Part shown: positions 2,832 through 10,983 of the stretch, piece by piece
Numbering within the stretch: the stretch's first letter is position 1
Layout: each line of letters opens with the position of its first letter
From: a virus
Lineage: Duplodnaviria > Heunggongvirae > Uroviricota > Caudoviricetes
Strand: one strand, 5' to 3'
DNA length: 16,353 nt
Virus record (IMG/VR): IMGVR_UViG_2585427750_000025
Coordinates: 1 to 16,353 of that record
The notes under the pieces: model-generated
Told to the model about the DNA's origin: nothing
What the model saw: the letters and a program-made list of their open reading frames with translations, nothing else
Database searches by the model: none
Translations under genes and position numbers: made by a program

Positions 2832-3113
2832 TTAGCAATTGATATTCACCTTTATCGCGAACACCTTTACCGGTTTATCGCCGAAGTGGGGATGTGTGAT
2901 TGTCTTGATTTCATATCCGTCATACGGAACATCAATTCTGCGACTGAAGTCGTCGCGCTTCGGATATCCCTTTGTGATAATCAGGCGGTCATACTCCCGG
3001 AACATAATTCGCTTATTCCAGTAGTCATTACACAAGCGATACTCTTCCGTTTTCTCCCCGCGAATCATGGCATCGAAGTATTCACCTTTGACGGCAAGTT
3101 GCAGGTTAGCCAC
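2832..3113 (-). CDS. ASCH/DUF3850-like small protein, 93 aa
   Basis: N-terminal pattern (LQLAVKGEYFDAMIRGEKTEEYRLCND) resembles the ASCH-fold DUF3850 family common in phage accessory regions; assignment from recall only. Confidence 0.45.
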   Translation of the reverse strand: MANLQLAVKGEYFDAMIRGEKTEEYRLCNDYWNKRIMFREYDRLIITKGYPKRDDFSRRIDVPYDGYEIKTITHPHFGDKPVKVFAIKVNINC

Positions 3114-3393
3114 GACCTTCCTCCTTTGGCTTGTGAATTTGTATCGTCATGCCGCTTTGAGTGGTGACTACAATGACAGAACCAGGCTGAAGGCTGTTAA
3201 GATTGAATGCTTCGTAAAACGAATCCAATGCCAGTGCTTTTTTATTCTTTCGGTTCCACCAACGCCATCCCTTGCTACAGGCTACACTGACAATCCACTG
3301 TCCACTCCTGTAAGCCATATAAAACCAGATGAGCAAAACCTGAAGGAATGCTATCCAGTCAATGATCGTATATTTCGCGAAGGAGTCCATCAC
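3106..3393 (-). CDS. Hypothetical protein with N-terminal hydrophobic segment, 95 aa
   Basis: ATG at 3393 preceded by GGAGGTG (5 nt spacer); start overlaps the stop of the upstream Lar-like gene (ATGA); hydrophobic stretch IIDWIAFLQVLLIWFYMAY. Confidence 0.55.
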   Translation of the reverse strand: MMDSFAKYTIIDWIAFLQVLLIWFYMAYRSGQWIVSVACSKGWRWWNRKNKKALALDSFYEAFNLNSLQPGSVIVVTTQSGMTIQIHKPKEEGRG

Positions 3394-3686
3394 TTCACCT
3401 CCTGCGGAGTAGCCTTTACAAGCACTGGTGTAAATCCATCTTCATTAAGGTTATGAATATAGACTTCTGTTCTCCTGCGCTCTTCAACGTTTAATATTGT
3501 TTCTGGATCATAAACCCATACTTTCATTCGACTATTCCATGAAGAAATCGCTTCAGATTTAGTTCGTTTTTCTGGTCCTTGGGCACCACATTTGCATGAC
3601 ACATAGCACATTTTCCCTCTGATACTGAATGAGTATCCGATGTTAAGCACAGTGGAACCACAGAATGGGCAGCGATATAGATTCAT
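3390..3686 (-). CDS. Lar-family restriction-alleviation-like protein with C-terminal extension, 98 aa
   Basis: N-terminal zinc-ribbon pattern CPFCG ... CxC ... AIxxWNSR typical of the Lar family; AGGTGG RBS upstream of ATG at 3686. Confidence 0.55.
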   Translation of the reverse strand: MNLYRCPFCGSTVLNIGYSFSIRGKMCYVSCKCGAQGPEKRTKSEAISSWNSRMKVWVYDPETILNVEERRRTEVYIHNLNEDGFTPVLVKATPQEVK

Positions 3687-4303
3687 AAATCATCCACCTT
3701 AGGCGCAGCTGAGACAGCAACATTCCAGAACTCAGAAAACATATTGTATGCACCAGATAGATTGGAAGTGGCATACCCTCCAAGCTCACTTCTAATCTGA
3801 ACGGCTCTCATCATTTCCGGGGTTAACTCCTTCGGCACCATAACCCAACCATCCGGAGTTACCGGAGAGTTGCCGGGTTCTTTAATGTGCAAGCGAGGCT
3901 CACCATCTTTTGGCTCAGGCCACTGGCGCTCCATGTTGATCTTCAATTTATCTTCCATAGCAGCGGTAATTTCAGCATCGCTGATGCCAGCACGGCGCTG
4001 TGCATCCCACAACAGAAACTGCATATCAGCCCACTCGCTAAGATCGTCTGGTTCGGCTGCGGCTTCCAGTGCCTCTTTTGAGAGATGTTTCAGCGGACCA
4101 ATGGGGCCAACGCAGCCAAATGTGGAGTCAGACCATTTGGCATGCTCGTGGCGAATCTGTTCGCGTTCCAGTGATGCCAGTGCGATACGCAGGGCATCCA
4201 GGATATTCCCCTGGTAATCATCAAGCCCGAAAGGAAGCTCATCACGAACGCTTTCATAATCGTTGATAGCCTGCTGCAGCCATTCTCTTGTGATAGTGCT
4301 CAT
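3683..4303 (-). CDS. Hypothetical phage protein, 206 aa (possibly DUF550 / MazG-like N-terminal domain)
   Basis: Strong RBS AAGGAGAGG before ATG at 4303; ATGA overlap with upstream gene; domain assignment tentative. Confidence 0.5.
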   Translation of the reverse strand: MSTITREWLQQAINDYESVRDELPFGLDDYQGNILDALRIALASLEREQIRHEHAKWSDSTFGCVGPIGPLKHLSKEALEAAAEPDDLSEWADMQFLLWDAQRRAGISDAEITAAMEDKLKINMERQWPEPKDGEPRLHIKEPGNSPVTPDGWVMVPKELTPEMMRAVQIRSELGGYATSNLSGAYNMFSEFWNVAVSAAPKVDDL

Positions 4304-4926
4304 GATGCCTCTCCTTTACCTGCTTCGGTGACGTTTATTCCAGCGTTGTGCAGTGCCTCAAGAACCTGATGCTGCCTGTAAACCATTTCAGTGTGGTAAG
4401 GCTCGTCAAAATCGACGCGATGCAACATGCTATAGCATTGCGGAAGCACAACCTCCCGCAACTCCAGCTCAGCAATGCGCTTCTCTGCGGCTTCCAGCTT
4501 CTCGCGCATATCGTCAACGTACTCGACCAGAGAACCGCCAGCAGGAATTTCGCACTCCTCGACCAGTTGGAAGTAGATATCAGCTGCGGCCCGTGTGTTG
4601 CTATGCCTAGCGTCGCCCATCTCACCTTCACGAAGAGCATCGCGTTCGGCGGTAAGATTGGCTATTTTGCTGTCTTTGCCTTCCAGCTCAACGCGCAGCT
4701 TCCCTACCGTTAGCGCAATTTCCTCGTTCTCCTGGTCACGGCGTTTGATGTATTGCTGGTTTCTTTCCAGTTCATCCAACAATGCCAGCGCGATATCTGG
4801 CGAAAAGTGCTTCATAAAATCGTTAAGCGCATTAATTCGCTGATCGAAAGGCATTACAGGTGCTTCACCAGCAATTTTTGTTTTTTCAGCGATTTCACGA
4901 AGCTTTTGATAATCAATCTTGCTCAC
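4300..4926 (-). CDS. Ead/Ea22-like family protein, 208 aa (GTG start)
   Basis: N-terminus MSKIDYQKLREIAEK and coiled-coil-like middle resemble lambda Ea22-like proteins; GTG at 4926 preceded by AAGGAGG (6 nt spacer). Confidence 0.6.
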   Translation of the reverse strand: MSKIDYQKLREIAEKTKIAGEAPVMPFDQRINALNDFMKHFSPDIALALLDELERNQQYIKRRDQENEEIALTVGKLRVELEGKDSKIANLTAERDALREGEMGDARHSNTRAAADIYFQLVEECEIPAGGSLVEYVDDMREKLEAAEKRIAELELREVVLPQCYSMLHRVDFDEPYHTEMVYRQHQVLEALHNAGINVTEAGKGEAS

Positions 4927-5060
4927 TGGTTGCCTCCTTTGCGAAGCTGGTTGGCGAACAAACGTACACTAGACGCTTCACTGCGTAGAAACTTAACGGC
5001 ATAATCAAAACCACCTCGTTCTGCGTCGTCTGCTCCGTTGTCGAGGTTATCTGCGTACAT
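4923..5060 (-). CDS. Small hypothetical ORF, 45 aa (internal ATG of the 92-aa track ORF)
   Basis: ATG at 5060 lies 14 nt inside the end of the upstream gene; its TGA stop overlaps the GTG start of the Ea22-like gene (GTGA). Fits the coupling pattern of the operon but is short. Confidence 0.3.
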   Translation of the reverse strand: MYADNLDNGADDAERGGFDYAVKFLRSEASSVRLFANQLRKGGNQ

Positions 5061-5406
5061 CTCTACCCCCCTGCGCCCGTACTTCAGCCAGGAAAGCATC
5101 GGTGGCTGGTGTTTCAACACGGATGCTGTCGCGCAAGATGAAAAATGCATCAAGCATTCCAGTCTCCGGCACTTCATCCTGATGCTTCTCATACGCATCA
5201 AGAGCCTTCATCATCTCAGGTCCGAATGGTTGAGGGTGCGCAGCCTTCAGCCCCGCATTCTCCGCCGCCAGCGCCGCGCACTTGGCCTCCGCTTCAGCAA
5301 ATTTACGCACCAGATATTCAGCGTTTGTTTCGTTAACCTTTAAATCACTTGGGATGCATTTACCTTTCAGAAAACCATCCATCTCAATTAGTGTCATTTG
5401 TTTCAT
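5047..5406 (-). CDS. Hypothetical phage protein, 119 aa
   Basis: Intact ORF, ATG at 5406 overlapping the stop of the upstream 54-aa ORF (ATGA). Confidence 0.5.
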
Positions 5407-5567
5407 TTCTTCCCACTCCGCAACATCGCATTCAGATATTTGTTGTCATTAACAGAACCGAAACTATTTCTCTTAAGCAATTCCTCTCTCGATGGCATTG
5501 GCTTTACGCGTTGGCGAATAATCATTTCTGCCGGAAGAATGCCGGGATTGTATGCAAGTCCTCTCAT
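5403..5567 (-). CDS. Small hypothetical ORF, 54 aa (below the ORF-track length cutoff)
   Basis: Hand translation: [54 protein letters not shown]; GGAGAG RBS upstream; ATGA overlaps at both ends exactly fill the gap between flanking genes. Confidence 0.35.
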
Positions 5568-5854
5568 GATTTACTCTCCACGAACTGGTCAACAGCCATG
5601 CTAAGTGACACACCTAAAGTCTCGATATGTTGCTGAATATCCTGTAGCGTCTGCGCCTGAGATAACAGGATTTCACGGTTGCATAACTCTTTAACCAGAT
5701 GCTCAAACTTGCTGTAATAACCGATACGGCTTAGTGTTTCTTTCCCTGCATTCTCGCCTTCTTTGATAATTCCTCTTTCGCTAAGAATCAGATCGTGTTT
5801 TGTTCCGGTAATAACGTATTTTCCGAGGTTGATGTTTAGCTTCATTGTTTTCAT
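5564..5854 (-). CDS. Hypothetical phage protein, 96 aa (start moved to internal ATG)
   Basis: ATG at 5854 (MKTMKLNIN...) is preceded by GAGGAA with 6-nt spacer and lies 11 nt after the stop of the upstream gene; the longer 147-aa track ORF would overlap that gene. Confidence 0.5.
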
Positions 5855-5864
5855 TGTTAATTCC

Positions 5865-6161
5865 TCAGTCATTACTGATAGCGCCATAGCGTGAGCGGTA
5901 ATTACGCAGGCGCGGGTCGATATATTCAGGGAAGTGGGTATATGTGGCTTTGCGGAATGGTCGGATTGATGTCTGGTAAATTCGCTCGCGTTCTTCTTTC
6001 TCTGCAAGCCATATGCAGTGGCGAAACTCCTTTTCCTCTTTCGTTTCCTGCGGTAGAGACATTATCCGATCGTAGTTTTTTCTGAATTTATCCAGCACCT
6101 CCGATACGGAATTGCCGGAACAGCGGCGCGCGTCGTCCGCACCATATAGAGGCGCTGGCAT
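5865..6161 (-). CDS. Hypothetical phage protein, 98 aa
   Basis: ATG at 6161 preceded by AGGAGA (5 nt spacer), 16 nt downstream of the exonuclease stop. Confidence 0.5.
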   Translation of the reverse strand: MPAPLYGADDARRCSGNSVSEVLDKFRKNYDRIMSLPQETKEEKEFRHCIWLAEKEERERIYQTSIRPFRKATYTHFPEYIDPRLRNYRSRYGAISND

Positions 6162-6177
6162 GGTTTTCTCCTGTTGA

Positions 6178-6726
6178 TTATTTAGCTAACTTTTTCCAGA
6201 TCGCTGAAACGTATTTGGCTTGGTGGATTGCATCATCAAGCGCGTTGTGGCGAGTTCCTTTGAATGGCATATCTCGCTTAGGGTCTAATCCTATTGCCTT
6301 CCCAAGTTCGACGATTGTTCTTACGTCGCGGTCATTCCACCACTGCCACGGAACTGGCTGCCCTGTCAGCGAATAAGTGTTGCGGAGAATAACGCAGTCA
6401 AATGATGCTCCATTCCCCCAAACCTGAACGAGTTTGTGGTTGGCGTTCTTTATGATGAATTCAGATAACCATGAAAGAGCCGTTGAAAGCTCTTGAGTGT
6501 TGCTGGTTAGCGATTTTCTGGCTTCTTCACTCTGTTCCATCCACCATAAAATCGTTGAAGCGTCAGGACGCGCCCGATATCGCATTGATGACTCAAGCGA
6601 GATATTTACCGAGAACTCTTCTCCTGTTTCTCCGGTATTCGGGTCAAAGAATACCGCCCCAATAGAAATAACTGGTGCGTATGGCCCGTTGCCCATTGTT
6701 TCAAGGTCAACCATCAAGTGATTCAT
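6178..6726 (-). CDS. DnaQ-like (DEDDh) 3'-5' exonuclease, 182 aa
   Basis: Exo motif I (MVDLETMG) and Exo III-like H-x4-D (HNALDDAIH) with intervening acidic residues; AAGGA RBS; immediately downstream of ssb. Confidence 0.7.
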   Translation of the reverse strand: MNHLMVDLETMGNGPYAPVISIGAVFFDPNTGETGEEFSVNISLESSMRYRARPDASTILWWMEQSEEARKSLTSNTQELSTALSWLSEFIIKNANHKLVQVWGNGASFDCVILRNTYSLTGQPVPWQWWNDRDVRTIVELGKAIGLDPKRDMPFKGTRHNALDDAIHQAKYVSAIWKKLAK

Positions 6727-6734
6727 GTAAGTCC

Positions 6735-7250
6735 TTAAATTGCGTAAATAGCGTGACGAGGGAAAGGGAGAGTTACTGGTGCAAAGGGGATATCGTCGTC
6801 AAAATCCATAGGTGGTTCGCTGTGATTTACCTGCTTCTGAGACTGCTGTTTTTGTTGCTGACCGTTATTTCGCTGAGGTGAAGACTGTTCATTGCCTCCT
6901 TGCTTGCCACCAAGCATTTGCATGGTTCCACCAACGCCCACGATAACTTCGGTAGTGAACCGATCCTGTCCACTTTGATCCTGCCATTTTCTTGTCCGCA
7001 ATTTGCCTTCAAGATAAACCTCTGAGCCTTTTCGCAGATATTCGCTGGCAATTTCTGCCAGTTTCCCGCTCATTACCACTCGGTGCCACTCCGTCTGCTC
7101 CTTTTGCTCTCCAGTTTGCTTATCACGCCATTGTTCTGACGTAGCAACTGTAAGGTTTGCAAATGCCGTTCCTGATGGTGAATATCTGATTTCTGGATCA
7201 TGCCCAAGGCGACCAATAATGATCACCTTATTTACGCCTCTGCTTGCCAT
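6735..7250 (-). CDS. ssb: Single-stranded DNA-binding protein (phage SSB), 171 aa, with a 15-residue extension after the DDDIPF motif
   Basis: N-terminal OB-fold region closely resembles E. coli SSB ([10 protein letters not shown]..., [15 protein letters not shown]); Gly/Gln-rich linker; [10 protein letters not shown] motif present but followed by [15 protein letters not shown] before the stop. Confidence 0.85.
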
Positions 7251-7958
7251 TTATGCCGCCTGTTTTAGTTCATTAACTCTGATGTTCATTACCTGAACGC
7301 ATTTAGCCTGCGCCTCCTCGTTGCCAGCCATTAATTGCCAGTCACGCTGATAACGCTCGATGAGTTTTTTCTTGTCAGTTTCTGTTGACGCATAATCGCT
7401 GAAGTCTTTCAGGATTTGTTCGCAGTCAACCGATGGAGATTTCTGGTTGGTATTTTCTGGTGATGGTTTGTTATCTGATGCTGGGATTGCCCATCCCGGC
7501 AGCGATGGAGGGAGCCAGTAAAATCCTGTTCCATCCTTCAGTTTTGCCCTGTGCCACCCCTGCTTTTTATCGAGAGATGTTTGTGCGAAACCTTCCTCAA
7601 GGTTATACAGATACCGACCGATTCCCCACTGAACGGCAGCGCGCTTCATTGCACCGGAACGACCACCTTTGACGGCTTCTACCTGCGTGTTTTCAGCAGC
7701 ATCCCATTTGGTTACCCATTCGGAATCAATCTTTATTGATATGCCGCATTCAACGCCGCCGTTGTTGGGAATATCGCGGTATTCATTGCGCCATCCTGCT
7801 TTGCCGCAAACATCGTCCAGGCGTTTCATGATTGCCCGGTTCGTGACATAAGCCAGCACCATAGCCCACACTTTGCCATCGCGTGTTTTACCGCTTTGCT
7901 GTATTCGCCATTCGATATCTTCAGGGCTGAATGGCTCATCGAATTTATTCAAATCCAT
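7251..7958 (-). CDS. Single-strand annealing protein, Rad52/Sak-like (tentative family), 235 aa
   Basis: In the bet/erf position directly upstream of ssb (stop TAA abuts the ssb ATG); N-terminal region resembles Rad52/22-family annealing proteins; GAGGTG RBS before ATG at 7958. Confidence 0.5.
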   Translation of the reverse strand: MDLNKFDEPFSPEDIEWRIQQSGKTRDGKVWAMVLAYVTNRAIMKRLDDVCGKAGWRNEYRDIPNNGGVECGISIKIDSEWVTKWDAAENTQVEAVKGGRSGAMKRAAVQWGIGRYLYNLEEGFAQTSLDKKQGWHRAKLKDGTGFYWLPPSLPGWAIPASDNKPSPENTNQKSPSVDCEQILKDFSDYASTETDKKKLIERYQRDWQLMAGNEEAQAKCVQVMNIRVNELKQAA

Positions 7959-8057: not shown

Positions 8058-8216
8058 TTATGGCGATACCAGAGAGCTTTCTGCGTGTACATGCGTCTCT
8101 GTAACTTGCTCTCCTTCACTGTGGTTGCAAGTGACATGAATATCTCCTTCGTTACCGATTAATTCTTTCATCTGACGAATGAATTCTTCGTCTGACCAGT
8201 TATCTGTAAAACTCAT
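8058..8216 (-). CDS. Small hypothetical protein, 52 aa, in the kil position
   Basis: ATG at 8216 overlaps the CIII-like stop (ATGA); sits between cIII and the recombination genes as kil does in lambda; no sequence similarity to lambda Kil recognised. Confidence 0.35.
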   Translation of the reverse strand: MSFTDNWSDEEFIRQMKELIGNEGDIHVTCNHSEGEQVTETHVHAESSLVSP

Positions 8217-8383
8217 GGACGGCCTTGTTGTTTCAAAATATCCCAAAGCTTTTCGAGCAAACTTTTCATTCTTGGTTGTTTAAAGTCTGCTCCGGTTAAA
8301 ATATTTTTTCGTGAATGCTGTACCGATAAAATCGGGTTGAAAGGGCGAACCAATGCCGCCCCTGCAATAGCGAACTGTTGCAT
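8213..8383 (-). CDS. cIII: CIII-like protein (candidate FtsH/HflB inhibitor), 56 aa
   Basis: Internal ATG at 8383 with AAGGAG RBS (6 nt spacer); product MQQFAIAGAAL...LLEKLWDILKQQGRP resembles lambda CIII (MQYAIAG ... LLERI...ILNQPG) and occupies the cIII position. Confidence 0.6.
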   Translation of the reverse strand: MQQFAIAGAALVRPFNPILSVQHSRKNILTGADFKQPRMKSLLEKLWDILKQQGRP

Positions 8384-8445: not shown

Positions 8446-8473
8446 ATATAAAAAGGCCCTCACACTGGAGGGC
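8446..8473 (-). terminator. Putative rho-independent terminator upstream of cIII in the pL operon
   Basis: Stem gccctc (8456-8461) / gagggc (8468-8473), loop acactg; followed on the minus strand by TTTTTATA. Confidence 0.4.
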
Positions 8474-8591
8474 AAAGAAGATTTCCAATAATCAGAACAA
8501 GTCGGCTCCTGTTTAGTTACGAGCGACATTGCTCCGTGTATTCACTCGTTGGAATGAATACACAGTGCAGTGTTTATTCTGTTGTTTATGC

Positions 8592-8617
8592 CAAAAATAA
8601 AGGCCGACTATTCGGCC
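8592..8617 (-). terminator. Putative rho-independent terminator (tL1-like position) overlapping the stop codon of the post-N gene
   Basis: Stem ggccga (8602-8607) / tcggcc (8612-8617), loop ctat; followed on the minus strand by TTTATTTTTG; the TAG stop of the 107-aa gene lies inside the hairpin. Confidence 0.45.
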
Positions 8618-8931
8618 TTATCTACATTCCTGAACCAAACGCAGATCGGACCGTCTTCTGTATCGTGAATCGAACCGACAAACCATCCTTCTCCATCTGG
8701 CATGCTTGGCTCCCATCCACTGATGTTTTGATTCCCATCTTCAAAATACGCGTCAATTACCGTTTGATTGTTGTCGTTTTCCATTTCAACAATTGATGAT
8801 TCAATGCCATGCTGCTTGCAGAAAGATCTGAACTCATCAGCTGAAATTACCTCTCTATCCCCAAACAGGTTGGCGTATTCTGGGTGCGTCCAGTAGCCAT
8901 CCTCGCTTCGCTCTACTACTAATGCTTCCAT
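8608..8931 (-). CDS. Highly acidic hypothetical protein, 107 aa, immediately downstream of N
   Basis: ATG at 8931 with GAGGTGAG RBS, 8 nt after the N stop; roughly 24 Asp/Glu against 6 Lys/Arg by manual count. Confidence 0.55.
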   Translation of the reverse strand: MEALVVERSEDGYWTHPEYANLFGDREVISADEFRSFCKQHGIESSIVEMENDNNQTVIDAYFEDGNQNISGWEPSMPDGEGWFVGSIHDTEDGPICVWFRNVDKAE

Positions 8932-8939
8932 ATCTCACC

Positions 8940-9266
8940 TCAAATAAGTGGTTTGCTGCCTAATTTCATTTTCTGGCGACCAACACAAGTCACACCCATT
9001 TCACTGCGTGGCTTGCTGTACCATGTGCGCTGATTCTTGCGCTCAATACGTTGCAGGTTGCTTTCAATCTGTTCGTGGTATTCAGCCAGCGCCGTAAGGT
9101 CTATCGGATTCAGTGCGCTTTCTACTCGTGATTTCGGTTTGCGATTCAGCGAGAGAATAGGGCGGTTAACTGGCTTTGCGCTTACCCCAACCAACAGGGG
9201 ATTTGCTGCTTTCCATTGAGCCTGTTTTTCTGCGCGACGTTCGCGGCGGCGTGTTTGTGCATCCAT
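8940..9266 (-). CDS. N: Antitermination protein N (lambda-type), 108 aa
   Basis: Product from internal ATG at 9266 begins MDAQTRRRERRAEKQAQWKAANPLLVGVSAKPVNRPILSLNRKPKSRVESALNPIDLT, matching lambda N including the arginine-rich boxB-binding motif. Confidence 0.9.
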   Translation of the reverse strand: MDAQTRRRERRAEKQAQWKAANPLLVGVSAKPVNRPILSLNRKPKSRVESALNPIDLTALAEYHEQIESNLQRIERKNQRTWYSKPRSEMGVTCVGRQKMKLGSKPLI

Positions 9267-9438
9267 CTGGATTCTCCTGTCAGTTAGCTTTGGTGGTGTG
9301 GTAGGTGGGAGACCCATTTCGACCTGCTTCGGCCGACTTCAATTCGGCAATAGTTCCGCAGGCCTCGCCGCTTTACGTGCGACATATTCCCATCCATGAA
9401 CCCTTCACCACACCCCAAAGCCTTCTGCTTTGAATGCT

Positions 9439-9469
9439 GCCCTTCTTCAGGGCTTAATTTTTAAGAGCA
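9439..9469 (-). promoter_or_regulatory. nutL site (boxA GCTCTTAA and boxB GCCCTGAAGAAGGGC)
   Basis: Minus strand reads GCTCTTAAAAATTAAGCCCTGAAGAAGGGCAGC, the lambda nutL sequence; boxB is a 5-bp stem with GAAGA loop. Confidence 0.85.
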
Positions 9470-9508: not shown

Positions 9509-9581
9509 AAATTACAAGAAAGATTGTATGTTGTAAACAAGAAATATTGTAAAAAGGGGCGTGAAAAACAAACTCCATTGT
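9509..9581 (-). promoter_or_regulatory. pL promoter with three 434-type operators (OL, ACAA-N6-TTGT)
   Basis: 14-bp operators at 9514-9527, 9537-9550 and 9568-9581; minus-strand -35 TTTACA (9532-9537), 17-bp spacer, -10 TAATTT (9509-9514); lambda-like leader ATCAGCAGGACGCACTGACC starts near 9502. Confidence 0.65.

Positions 9582-9630: not shown

Positions 9631-10983
<1,353 letters not shown>

What the first reader, a model, noticed from the sequence alone, without database searches (positions are those of the whole stretch)
8608..8931. Strongly acidic 107-aa protein as the first gene after N: candidate DNA-mimic or anti-defence factor
It is the first gene expressed after N from pL and is very acidic (about 24 Asp/Glu against 6 Lys/Arg by my count) with several aromatic residues. 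Early, small, acidic phage proteins are often DNA mimics or inhibitors of host nucleases and restriction systems (Ocr, ArdA, Gam-like proteins). Its stop codon sits inside a terminator-like hairpin (8592-8617), so expression beyond this gene would depend on N antitermination.
Basis: partly seen in the sequence, partly recalled or inferred. Interest (0 to 1): 0.55.

Follow-up and report, generated by a model that had tools for sequence, protein, structure and literature searches.

The report
Acidic early phage gene, known abortive-infection trigger
The small acidic gene right after N is real and is nearly identical to a phage accessory gene ("orf184") already shown to set off a bacterial suicide defence, but nothing supports the DNA-mimic idea and what the protein does for the phage is still unknown.

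Summary
Window 8608-8931 (-) encodes a 107-aa protein with 24 Asp/Glu, 6 Lys/Arg and pI 4.1. It starts 8 nt after the stop of a lambda-type N gene, and its stop codon lies in the loop of a terminator-like hairpin.

The protein differs at 4 of 107 residues from mEp213 gp45. That protein is "orf184" of Silas et al. (bioRxiv 10.1101/2023.04.06.535777). Its expression triggers cell death through the P4-satellite gop-beta-cII abortive-infection system. [quoted passage not shown] Here the gene replaces lambda's whole N-to-ral interval, with the junction at the stop codon.

It belongs to a large unannotated family (PHROG 1372, about 1,000 clusters at 50% identity). The family is found in phages of Proteobacteria and in 2,443 plasmids. 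Strong acidity is conserved across it, and no solved structure resembles the predicted fold. Members are often fused to other accessory domains, including Lar, Tad2-like and exonuclease domains.

DNA mimicry is not supported. There is no Ocr-, ArdA- or Gam-like fold, the acidic side chains are spread evenly over the model surface, and the published screen lists no counter-defence phenotype.

Most likely it is an immediate-early protein-binding effector, possibly a counter-defence factor, that gop-beta-cII senses. The gene is already known; its molecular target is not.

The parts
9509..9537 (-). Probable pL promoter (-35 TTTACA, 17-nt spacer, -10 TAATTT). The transcript start is about 9503, aligned with the lambda pL start ATCAGCAGGACG.
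   Evidence: Read from the sequence. Homology to lambda begins at about 9503. The site scores below the consensus-scan threshold, so it is inferred, not shown.
9439..9453 (-). nutL boxB hairpin (GCCCTGAAGAAGGGC)
   Evidence: Read from the sequence. The same hairpin is flagged in lambda at the annotated Nutl feature.
8940..9266 (-). Antitermination protein N, lambda type (starts MDAQTRRRERRAEKQ...)
   Evidence: PHROG 271, E = 2e-26. The DNA is 85-97% identical to lambda N.
8935..8941 (-). Shine-Dalgarno sequence GAGGTGA of the 107-aa gene. It overlaps the N stop codon (TGA at 8942-8940).
   Evidence: Upstream sequence. Translational coupling to N is inferred.
8608..8931 (-). 107-aa acidic protein. 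It is the orthologue of mEp213 gp45 = 'orf184' and belongs to the PHROG 1372 family.
   Evidence: Identity to orf184 was checked.
8592..8619 (-). Intrinsic-terminator-like hairpin plus T-run, with the gene's TAG stop in the loop. The 5' arm is made of the gene's last codons. The 3' arm and the T-run are shared with lambda DNA just downstream of ral.
8446..8611 (-). Block 97% identical to lambda 33923-34087 (the DNA following the ral stop). It marks the downstream mosaic junction and contains a second terminator-like hairpin at 8473-8456.
8213..8383 (-). cIII, the next recognisable gene downstream. It marks the far end of the N-cIII accessory slot.
   Evidence: PHROG 550, E = 1e-21

Best explanation
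The ORF is a real accessory gene of a lambdoid phage or prophage. It is the orthologue of mEp213 gp45, which Silas et al. call 'orf184'.

Its product is a compact, strongly acidic alpha/beta protein. It belongs to a large family with no Pfam entry (PHROG 1372). The family moves between accessory regions of phages and conjugative plasmids of Proteobacteria, either as a free-standing gene or fused to other accessory domains.

In this genome the gene has replaced the whole interval that in lambda runs from the N stop to the ral stop. It lies 8 nt after N with no terminator-like site in between. It should therefore be transcribed from pL, and probably translated in step with N, as soon as pL fires and without needing N. 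The hairpin at its end would then act as the first pL terminator, the one that N must override.

The one demonstrated activity of the near-identical protein (4 of 107 residues differ) is that its expression switches on the P4-satellite gop-beta-cII toxin/antitoxin-like abortive-infection system.

The role I think most likely for the phage is inferred, not shown. The protein binds and neutralises a host or rival-element protein, probably a nucleic-acid-handling immune or nuclease component. It would do so through a defined protein-protein surface, namely the conserved acidic beta-hairpin tip (D-T-E-D-G) and the neighbouring acidic patch, rather than by imitating a stretch of DNA. On this view gop-beta-cII detects that activity or the protein itself.
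For: Identity:
- tblastn gives 97.2% identity over 106 aa to mEp213 gp45.
- The synthesized gene UDP0184 = AFM76385.1 (JQ182733.1, 30588..30265) in the Silas supplement differs at 4 of 107 residues. All four fall in non-conserved columns.
- The published ORF184 model starts MEALVVERSEDGYWT.

Phenotype: orf184 triggers cell death through gop-beta-cII of ECOR59. Transposon suppressors map to gop and beta, and the effect was rebuilt in a laboratory strain. gop-beta-cII is an anti-phage system of the P4 hotspot.

Position:
- The window matches lambda on both flanks, but the N-stop to ral-stop interval is replaced, with the junction at the stop codon.
- No terminator-like site lies between N and the gene.
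- In mEp213 the gene sits in the same N-cIII region.
- In virulent Pectobacterium phages a homologue is among the first genes at the genome end.

Family:
- PHROG 1372, E = 1e-43.
- 1,005 cluster representatives at E <= 1e-3.
- Acidity is conserved: 174 domains have a median net charge of -15, and none has pI above 5.7.

Guilt by association:
- Fusions to Lar_restr_allev (3), Tad2-like (1), Rv2179c-like exonuclease (2) and DHH/DHHA1 (1). One Lar fusion was checked as a single ORF on its contig.
- Neighbours in other phages include Lar-like, methyltransferase, DinI and exonuclease genes.

Structure:
- The model is confident (pLDDT 88).
- The most conserved residues are mostly buried. The exposed conserved ones include the hairpin tip T91-E92-D93.
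- A natural tandem two-domain member hints at dimerisation.
Against: - No counter-defence activity has been shown. In the Silas screen orf184 is described only as a cell-death trigger, while other genes are labelled counter-defence.
- Fusion and neighbourhood evidence is circumstantial. Most fusion partners are themselves of unknown function.
- On plasmids the homologues lie inside the tra operon or between finO and repA, not where early anti-defence genes would be expected.
- Lambda and P1 are blocked by gop-beta-cII but have no detectable homologue. The system therefore does not depend on this protein alone.
- N-independent expression and terminator function are inferred from sequence only.
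- The window protein itself has not been tested. Four substitutions could matter.
Confidence: 0.5

Rival explanations
1. DNA mimic. The acidic surface imitates the phosphate backbone and titrates DNA-binding enzymes such as type I restriction enzymes or RecBCD, as Ocr, ArdA or Gam do.
For: - Extreme acidity that is conserved across the family.
- Early expression, in the slot otherwise held by the anti-restriction gene ral.
- Fusions to Lar domains.
- DNA mimics have diverse folds, so the lack of fold similarity does not exclude this.
Against: - The carboxylates are distributed isotropically on the model. The resultant is 0.167 against 0.18 for random surface sets, and the median nearest-neighbour spacing is 8.7 A. 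There is no single charged face or track.
- What the family conserves best is an aromatic/Gly/Pro/His core, not a charge pattern.
- In the published screen the known type I R-M inhibitors scored as counter-defence genes and orf184 did not. The systems triggered by the mimics Ocr and ArdA are not reported as triggered by orf184.
- The phage already carries Abc2 (anti-RecBCD) and a Lar-like gene.
Confidence: 0.12
2. Not a defence-related protein. It is a developmental or host-takeover modulator of the kind found in lambdoid early non-essential regions (Ea22, exo-xis region proteins). It would affect the lysis-lysogeny balance, host replication or cell division. Its triggering of gop-beta-cII would be a side effect of perturbing host physiology.
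For: - Distant homologues lie among ead/Ea22-like genes in D6, Rac-SA53 and P1-like phage-plasmids.
- Fusion partners share PHROGs 60, 614 and 492 with the window's own pL-operon ORFs.
- Plasmid copies sit inside tra operons, where they would be expressed in donors.
- Lambda and P1 lack the gene but are still sensed by gop-beta-cII. This fits a system that senses a host perturbation.
Against: - No homology to any characterised regulator.
- Its presence at the early end of virulent phage genomes and on plasmids argues against a role specific to lysogeny.
- Fusions to Lar and Tad2-like domains point to conflict functions.
Confidence: 0.2
3. Nuclease partner. The domain is an inhibitor (immunity protein) or a targeting adaptor for nucleases encoded by the mobile element itself. 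An acidic small protein would keep a cognate nuclease in check or direct it.
For: - In about 1,900 Klebsiella IncF plasmids the homologue overlaps by 4 nt the end of a DUF2726 (restriction-endonuclease-like) gene, and a PLD-family nuclease gene follows it.
- Fusions to Rv2179c-like 3'-5' exonuclease and DHH/DHHA1 phosphoesterase domains.
- In PY54 the gene lies between two exonuclease genes.
Against: - In this window and in mEp213 the gene has no adjacent nuclease.
- The Klebsiella arrangement is essentially one plasmid backbone, so it counts as one observation.
- Expression of orf184 alone has a phenotype.
Confidence: 0.15

Closest known systems
orf184 = mEp213 gp45 (AFM76385.1), from Silas et al., bioRxiv 10.1101/2023.04.06.535777 (published in Mol Cell 2025)
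   Same: 103 of 107 residues are identical. It lies in the same pL early accessory region between N and cIII, and the same terminator-like hairpin overlaps the stop codon.
   Different: In mEp213 a 1.7-kb insert (gp50 to gp46, including a second N-like gene) separates the first N from the gene. Here the gene abuts N directly. The four substitutions are V28A, S36Y, Q68P and E107A. The window allele itself is untested.
Lambda Ral (restriction alleviation)
   Same: It occupies the same genomic slot downstream of N and upstream of cIII. The downstream junction falls at the stop codon. Both are small early non-essential proteins.
   Different: The proteins show no detectable relationship: Ral is 66 aa and this protein is 107 aa, and only the flanking DNA aligns. 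From my own knowledge, lambda's tL1 terminator lies between N and ral; it was not found by the scan here. No terminator-like site precedes this gene. Ral did not trigger cell death in any strain of the Silas screen, whereas orf184 did.
Ocr / ArdA / Arn (acidic DNA-mimic anti-restriction proteins)
   Same: Small, very acidic, early-expressed proteins of mobile elements. Like orf184, Ocr and ArdA trigger abortive systems.
   Different: No fold or sequence similarity. The shape is compact and the charge isotropic, unlike an elongated DNA-like charge track. The published screen lists no anti-restriction phenotype.
Modular ead/Ea22-like accessory proteins of lambdoid and P1-like phages
   Same: They share genomic neighbourhoods. 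The domain occurs as an N- or C-terminal module joined to the same kinds of unknown-function modules.
   Different: The protein is not itself a Pfam Ead_Ea22 member, and none of the 60 fusion proteins scanned hit that family.

Membership tests
orf184 / PHROG 1372 family | Significant full-length sequence similarity to family members | tested here: met
   phrog_1372, E = 1.2e-43. 97% identity to mEp213 gp45. The profile search finds 1,005 representatives.
orf184 / PHROG 1372 family | Conserved motifs: R-D-x-x-G-x-W-x-H-P near the N-terminus, and W-x-P-x-x-P-x-G-x-G-W-F-x-x-S-I-H-D-T-E-D-G-P-x-C-x-W-x-R at the C-terminus | tested here: met
   All are present except that Ser replaces the usual Asp at position 9.
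orf184 / PHROG 1372 family | Location in the accessory region that also hosts ral | tested here: met
   Allelic replacement of the lambda N-to-ral interval.
orf184 / PHROG 1372 family | Triggers gop-beta-cII-dependent cell death | not testable with these tools
   Shown for the mEp213 protein, which differs at 4 of 107 residues, not for this allele.
Ocr-type DNA mimic | Ocr fold, or sequence similarity to Ocr | tested here: not met
Ocr-type DNA mimic | Surface carboxylates arranged as an elongated DNA-like track | tested here: not met
   On the published AF2 monomer model the acids are isotropic. A dimer was not modelled, so this is not absolute.
Ocr-type DNA mimic | Blocks type I restriction in vivo | not testable with these tools
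   The published screen lists orf184 only as a cell-death trigger. No direct EcoKI test of it is reported in the text I read.
ArdA anti-restriction | Match to the ArdA family, or the ArdA fold | tested here: not met
   No Pfam or NCBIfam hit and no PDB fold match.
Gam/Abc2-type RecBCD inhibitors | Sequence or fold similarity to lambda Gam or P22 Abc2 | tested here: not met
   No hits. A separate Abc2 gene lies at 5865-6161.
   No such hit in Pfam, PHROGs or NCBIfam. The window's SSB is a different gene at 6735-7250.
Known anti-phage defence proteins (PADLOC) | Match to a defence-system component model | tested here: not met
   No PADLOC hit at E <= 1.

The most novel reading that the evidence does not exclude
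The protein founds a new fold family of counter-defence proteins used by both phages and conjugative plasmids across Proteobacteria. It would neutralise a conserved nucleic-acid-handling immune or nuclease component through its acidic hairpin surface. The P4 gop-beta-cII system would be a guard that fires when this inhibitor is present. The gene's position ahead of the first pL terminator would make it the earliest anti-defence product of the phage, made before N acts.
Probability: 0.35. Interest if true: 0.65.

Novelty: already known. Interest (0 to 1): 0.38.

Why it matters
The gene itself is not new. A protein differing at 4 of 107 residues has been synthesized, screened and published as a trigger of the gop-beta-cII abortive-infection system.

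Three things remain open. What does the protein do for the phage? What does it bind? How do Gop and Beta sense it?

The family is large: about 1,000 clusters at 50% identity, 3% of sequenced plasmids, and phages of at least a dozen genera. It has no Pfam entry and no structural relative among solved structures. Finding its target would therefore annotate many genes at once and explain one trigger-sensor pair.

The arrangement here, fused to the end of N and ahead of the first terminator, gives a clean natural construct. It allows a test of whether lambdoid phages put some accessory functions into the N-independent immediate-early transcript.

Tried and rejected
Searches that found nothing:
- Pfam, NCBIfam and PADLOC scans of the protein gave nothing significant. 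The only Pfam line was DUF2303 at E = 0.12.
- Single-sequence and profile searches of PDB sequences gave nothing.
- The AlphaFold-database library (afdb50) was not available.
- A full-text search for the PHROG accession found nothing. The Mol Cell version of the Silas paper (PMC12088041) is not held. The companion Nat Commun paper does not mention the gene.
- Pfam scans of P4 Gop, Beta and cII gave only the uninformative 'Beta_protein' family. The sensor side therefore gave no clue to the mechanism.

Ideas considered and dropped:
- A metal or catalytic site formed by H16, H89 and C97. In the published AF2 model the two histidines are about 13 A apart and C97 is buried (coordinates read; burial). 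H89 and C97 are conserved in only 76-78% of members.
- A one-sided acidic face. The test showed an isotropic distribution, with only a weak, non-significant bias of the conserved acidic columns toward the hairpin tip (p about 0.1).
- Calling the largest fusion-partner cluster Ead/Ea22. No Pfam Ead_Ea22 hit was found among the 60 fusion proteins, so I describe it only through shared PHROGs.
- A chance ORF. Conservation across genera rules it out.

Full report

Yes. The ORF at 8608-8931 on the minus strand gives a 107-aa protein. It has 24 Asp/Glu, 6 Lys/Arg, 13 aromatic residues, pI 4.11 and net charge about -18. Among 28 likely genes of the window it has the lowest pI. Only a 52-aa ORF at 8058-8216 has a higher negative charge density.

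The ATG at 8931 is the first start after the upstream stop. A GAGGTGA Shine-Dalgarno sequence precedes it and overlaps the TGA stop of the upstream gene.

That upstream gene is a lambda-type N. It matches PHROG 271 and its DNA matches lambda N. The nutL boxB hairpin lies at 9439-9453, and the lambda pL transcript start sequence begins at about 9503.

The terminator-like element is also real. An 8-bp stem spans 8619-8600, the gene's TAG stop sits in the loop, and a T-run follows. The RNA fold is -15 kcal/mol, z = -3.1 against shuffles.

**2. What is it?**

Curated libraries give nothing: Pfam, NCBIfam and PADLOC have no hit. PHROGs places the protein in phrog_1372, a family of unknown function, at E = 1e-43.

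The closest phage gene is mEp213 gp45 at 97% identity. About 40 complete E. coli genomes carry a near-identical copy, and the hits listed mostly lie next to N.

The key result comes from the literature. The Silas et al. preprint (10.1101/2023.04.06.535777) synthesized 200 phage accessory genes. One of them, UDP0184 = AFM76385.1 from JQ182733.1 30588..30265, is mEp213 gp45. The authors' AlphaFold file named ORF184 starts with the same residues.

The window protein differs from it at four positions: V28A, S36Y, Q68P and E107A. All four are in non-conserved columns.

The paper reports that orf184 activates cell death through the gop-beta-cII locus of a P4-like satellite in ECOR59. Transposon suppressors mapped to gop and beta, and the effect was rebuilt in a laboratory strain. 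[quoted passage not shown] Rousset et al. (PMC9122126) showed that gop-beta-cII protects against lambda and P1.

In the Silas supplement orf184 is described only as a cell-death trigger. Other genes in the same list are labelled counter-defence.

**3. Genome context**

The window is the early region of a lambdoid phage or prophage. On the pL side the order is N, this gene, cIII, two small ORFs, an Erf-like annealing protein, SSB, an exonuclease and Abc2, then several unknown modular ORFs, a Lar-like gene and xis. On the other side lie a cI-like repressor, cro, cII, an O-like protein, DnaB and nin-region genes.

Comparison with lambda shows a clean module swap:
- Window 8446-8611 is 97% identical to lambda 33923-34087, the DNA just after the ral stop.
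- Window 8965-9503 matches the lambda N region.
- The lambda interval between them, about 950 bp including ral, is replaced by this gene plus an 8-nt spacer.
- The downstream junction falls at the stop codon.

The 5' arm of the hairpin is built from the gene's last codons. The 3' arm and the T-run are lambda-like. Lambda has only a weak 5-bp stem at that place.

The consensus scan finds no terminator-like site between pL and the hairpin at 8592-8619. I therefore infer that the N-independent pL transcript, about 0.9 kb, carries both N and this gene, and that the hairpin is the first barrier N must override. From my own knowledge, lambda's tL1 lies between N and ral. The scan did not detect it, so that contrast is not verified here.

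**4. The family**

An exhaustive profile search finds 1,005 cluster representatives (50% identity level) at E <= 1e-3. Phage hosts include Burkholderia, Pseudomonas, Vibrio, Erwinia, Klebsiella, Pectobacterium, Yersinia and Ralstonia.

The gene's position varies but is always among early or accessory genes:
- near the left end of virulent Pectobacterium phages;
- after Q, among Lar-like, exonuclease, methyltransferase and DinI genes in PY54;
- among ead/Ea22-like genes in D6, Rac-SA53 and P1-like phage-plasmids.

The family is also common on plasmids. It occurs in 2,443 of 72,556 records, of which 2,130 are conjugative. In Klebsiella IncF plasmids it lies between finO and repA, overlapping a DUF2726 gene and followed by a PLD-family nuclease gene. 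In Enterobacter IncFIB plasmids it lies inside the tra operon.

About half of the best 150 representatives are fusions. Partners with a name are Lar_restr_allev (3), Rv2179c-like exonuclease (2), Tad2-like (1), KTSC and DHH/DHHA1. Most partners have no known function. One Lar fusion was confirmed as a single ORF on its contig. One member has two tandem copies of the domain.

**5. Structure and charge**

The AlphaFold2 model is confident (pLDDT 88, pTM 0.78). It has a short N-terminal strand pair, three helices, a central strand and a long C-terminal beta-hairpin.

Acidity is a family property. Across 174 domains the median net charge is -15 and the median pI is 4.24, and none has pI above 5.7.

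The best-conserved positions are R8, G12, W14, H16, P17, W73, P75, P78, G80, G82, W83, F84, I88 and G94. I transcribed the authors' published ORF184 model and checked that all consecutive CA distances are 3.66-3.95 A. On that model these residues are mostly buried.

The exposed conserved residues include the hairpin tip T91-E92-D93. With E49, E51 and D90 it forms a modest conserved acidic patch.

The 23 carboxylates as a whole are spread isotropically. The resultant is 0.167 against 0.18 +/- 0.08 for random surface sets. That is not the pattern of a rod-like mimic.

A metal site made of H16, H89 and C97 is unlikely on geometry and conservation grounds (coordinates; conservation).

**6. How it most likely works**

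Shown:
- it is a conserved, real gene;
- a protein differing at 4 of 107 residues triggers gop-beta-cII;
- it occupies the ral slot;
- its family is a mobile accessory module of phages and plasmids.

Inferred:
- immediate-early, N-independent expression;
- a protein-binding role against a host or rival-element component, using the acidic hairpin surface;
- sensing of that activity, or of the protein itself, by gop-beta-cII.

Lambda and P1 lack any detectable homologue but are still blocked by the system. Gop/Beta therefore either recognise several triggers or sense a shared perturbation.

I put about 0.5 on the counter-defence or effector reading, 0.12 on true DNA mimicry, 0.2 on a non-defence developmental or host-takeover role, and 0.15 on a nuclease-partner role. 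The remainder goes to explanations not listed here.

**7. Verdict**

The gene is already known as orf184, with a published phenotype. Its biochemical function and target remain open.

Interest is moderate. It rests on the size of the unannotated family, the lack of any structural relative among solved structures, and the unusual placement ahead of the first pL terminator.

Noticed in passing
L003 (Rac-SA53) 3992-7019: In prophage Rac-SA53 a 43% homologue (rac22) lies about 1 kb from two genes, with an IS1 in between. One matches PADLOC 'cll' of gop-beta-cII (E = 2e-28). The other matches PD-Lambda-2_C and, weakly, 'beta' (E = 1e-41). So a relative of the abortive system that orf184 triggers sits beside an orf184 homologue.
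   Followed up: partly
L010 (Klebsiella IncFIB/FII plasmid) 4993-7955; L009 (Enterobacter IncFIB) 8983-9306: The family is abundant on conjugative plasmids: 2,443 PLSDB records, 1,896 of them Klebsiella. In Klebsiella the gene overlaps by 4 nt the end of a DUF2726 (restriction-endonuclease-like) gene and precedes a PLD-family nuclease gene, between finO and repA. In Enterobacter it lies inside the tra operon between traW and trbC.
   Followed up: partly
window 9631-10035 (-): An ORF directly downstream of the cI-like repressor, in the position of lambda rex, matches PHROG 2651 (unknown function). It starts with a hydrophobic signal-peptide or lipoprotein-like stretch ([20 protein letters not shown]). 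It is a candidate lysogen-expressed exclusion or conversion gene. PADLOC gave no hit.
   Followed up: partly
window 8058-8216 (-): A second very acidic small ORF: 52 aa, 11 D/E against 2 K/R, pI 4.4, PHROG 2123 (labelled 'recombinase'; the matching DNA in mEp213 covers the small ORFs gp41/gp40, which that record likens to Sf6 genes 30 and 29). It lies just downstream of cIII.
   Followed up: no
window 3390-3686 (-) and 5865-6161 (-): The same pL operon already carries a Lar-like restriction-alleviation gene (PHROG 599) and an Abc2 anti-RecBCD gene (PHROG 656). The phage therefore has other anti-restriction and anti-nuclease functions.
   Followed up: no
window 8929-8963; L001 (mEp213) 2908-3291 and 4969-5000: The last ~35 bp of N match two places in mEp213: the end of its first N gene, and the spacer just upstream of gp45. 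Between them mEp213 has a 1.7-kb insert with a second N-like gene. This looks like a repeated boundary sequence used for module exchange.
   Followed up: partly
P0034; P0069 / L008 139-771: One family member carries two tandem copies of the domain (residues 12-122 and 166-276). Another is a verified single-ORF fusion of a Lar zinc-ribbon domain (residues 9-88) with this domain (106-209).
   Followed up: partly
L012-L017 (P1-like phage-plasmid contigs) 4001-4312: A 46% homologue (P0020, listed in 937 blocks of the collection index) is a fixed part of an accessory gene block of D6/P1-like phage-plasmids. It lies between DUF4752 plus a small ORF and the Ppp metallophosphatase. P1 itself and lambda give no hit.
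   Followed up: partly
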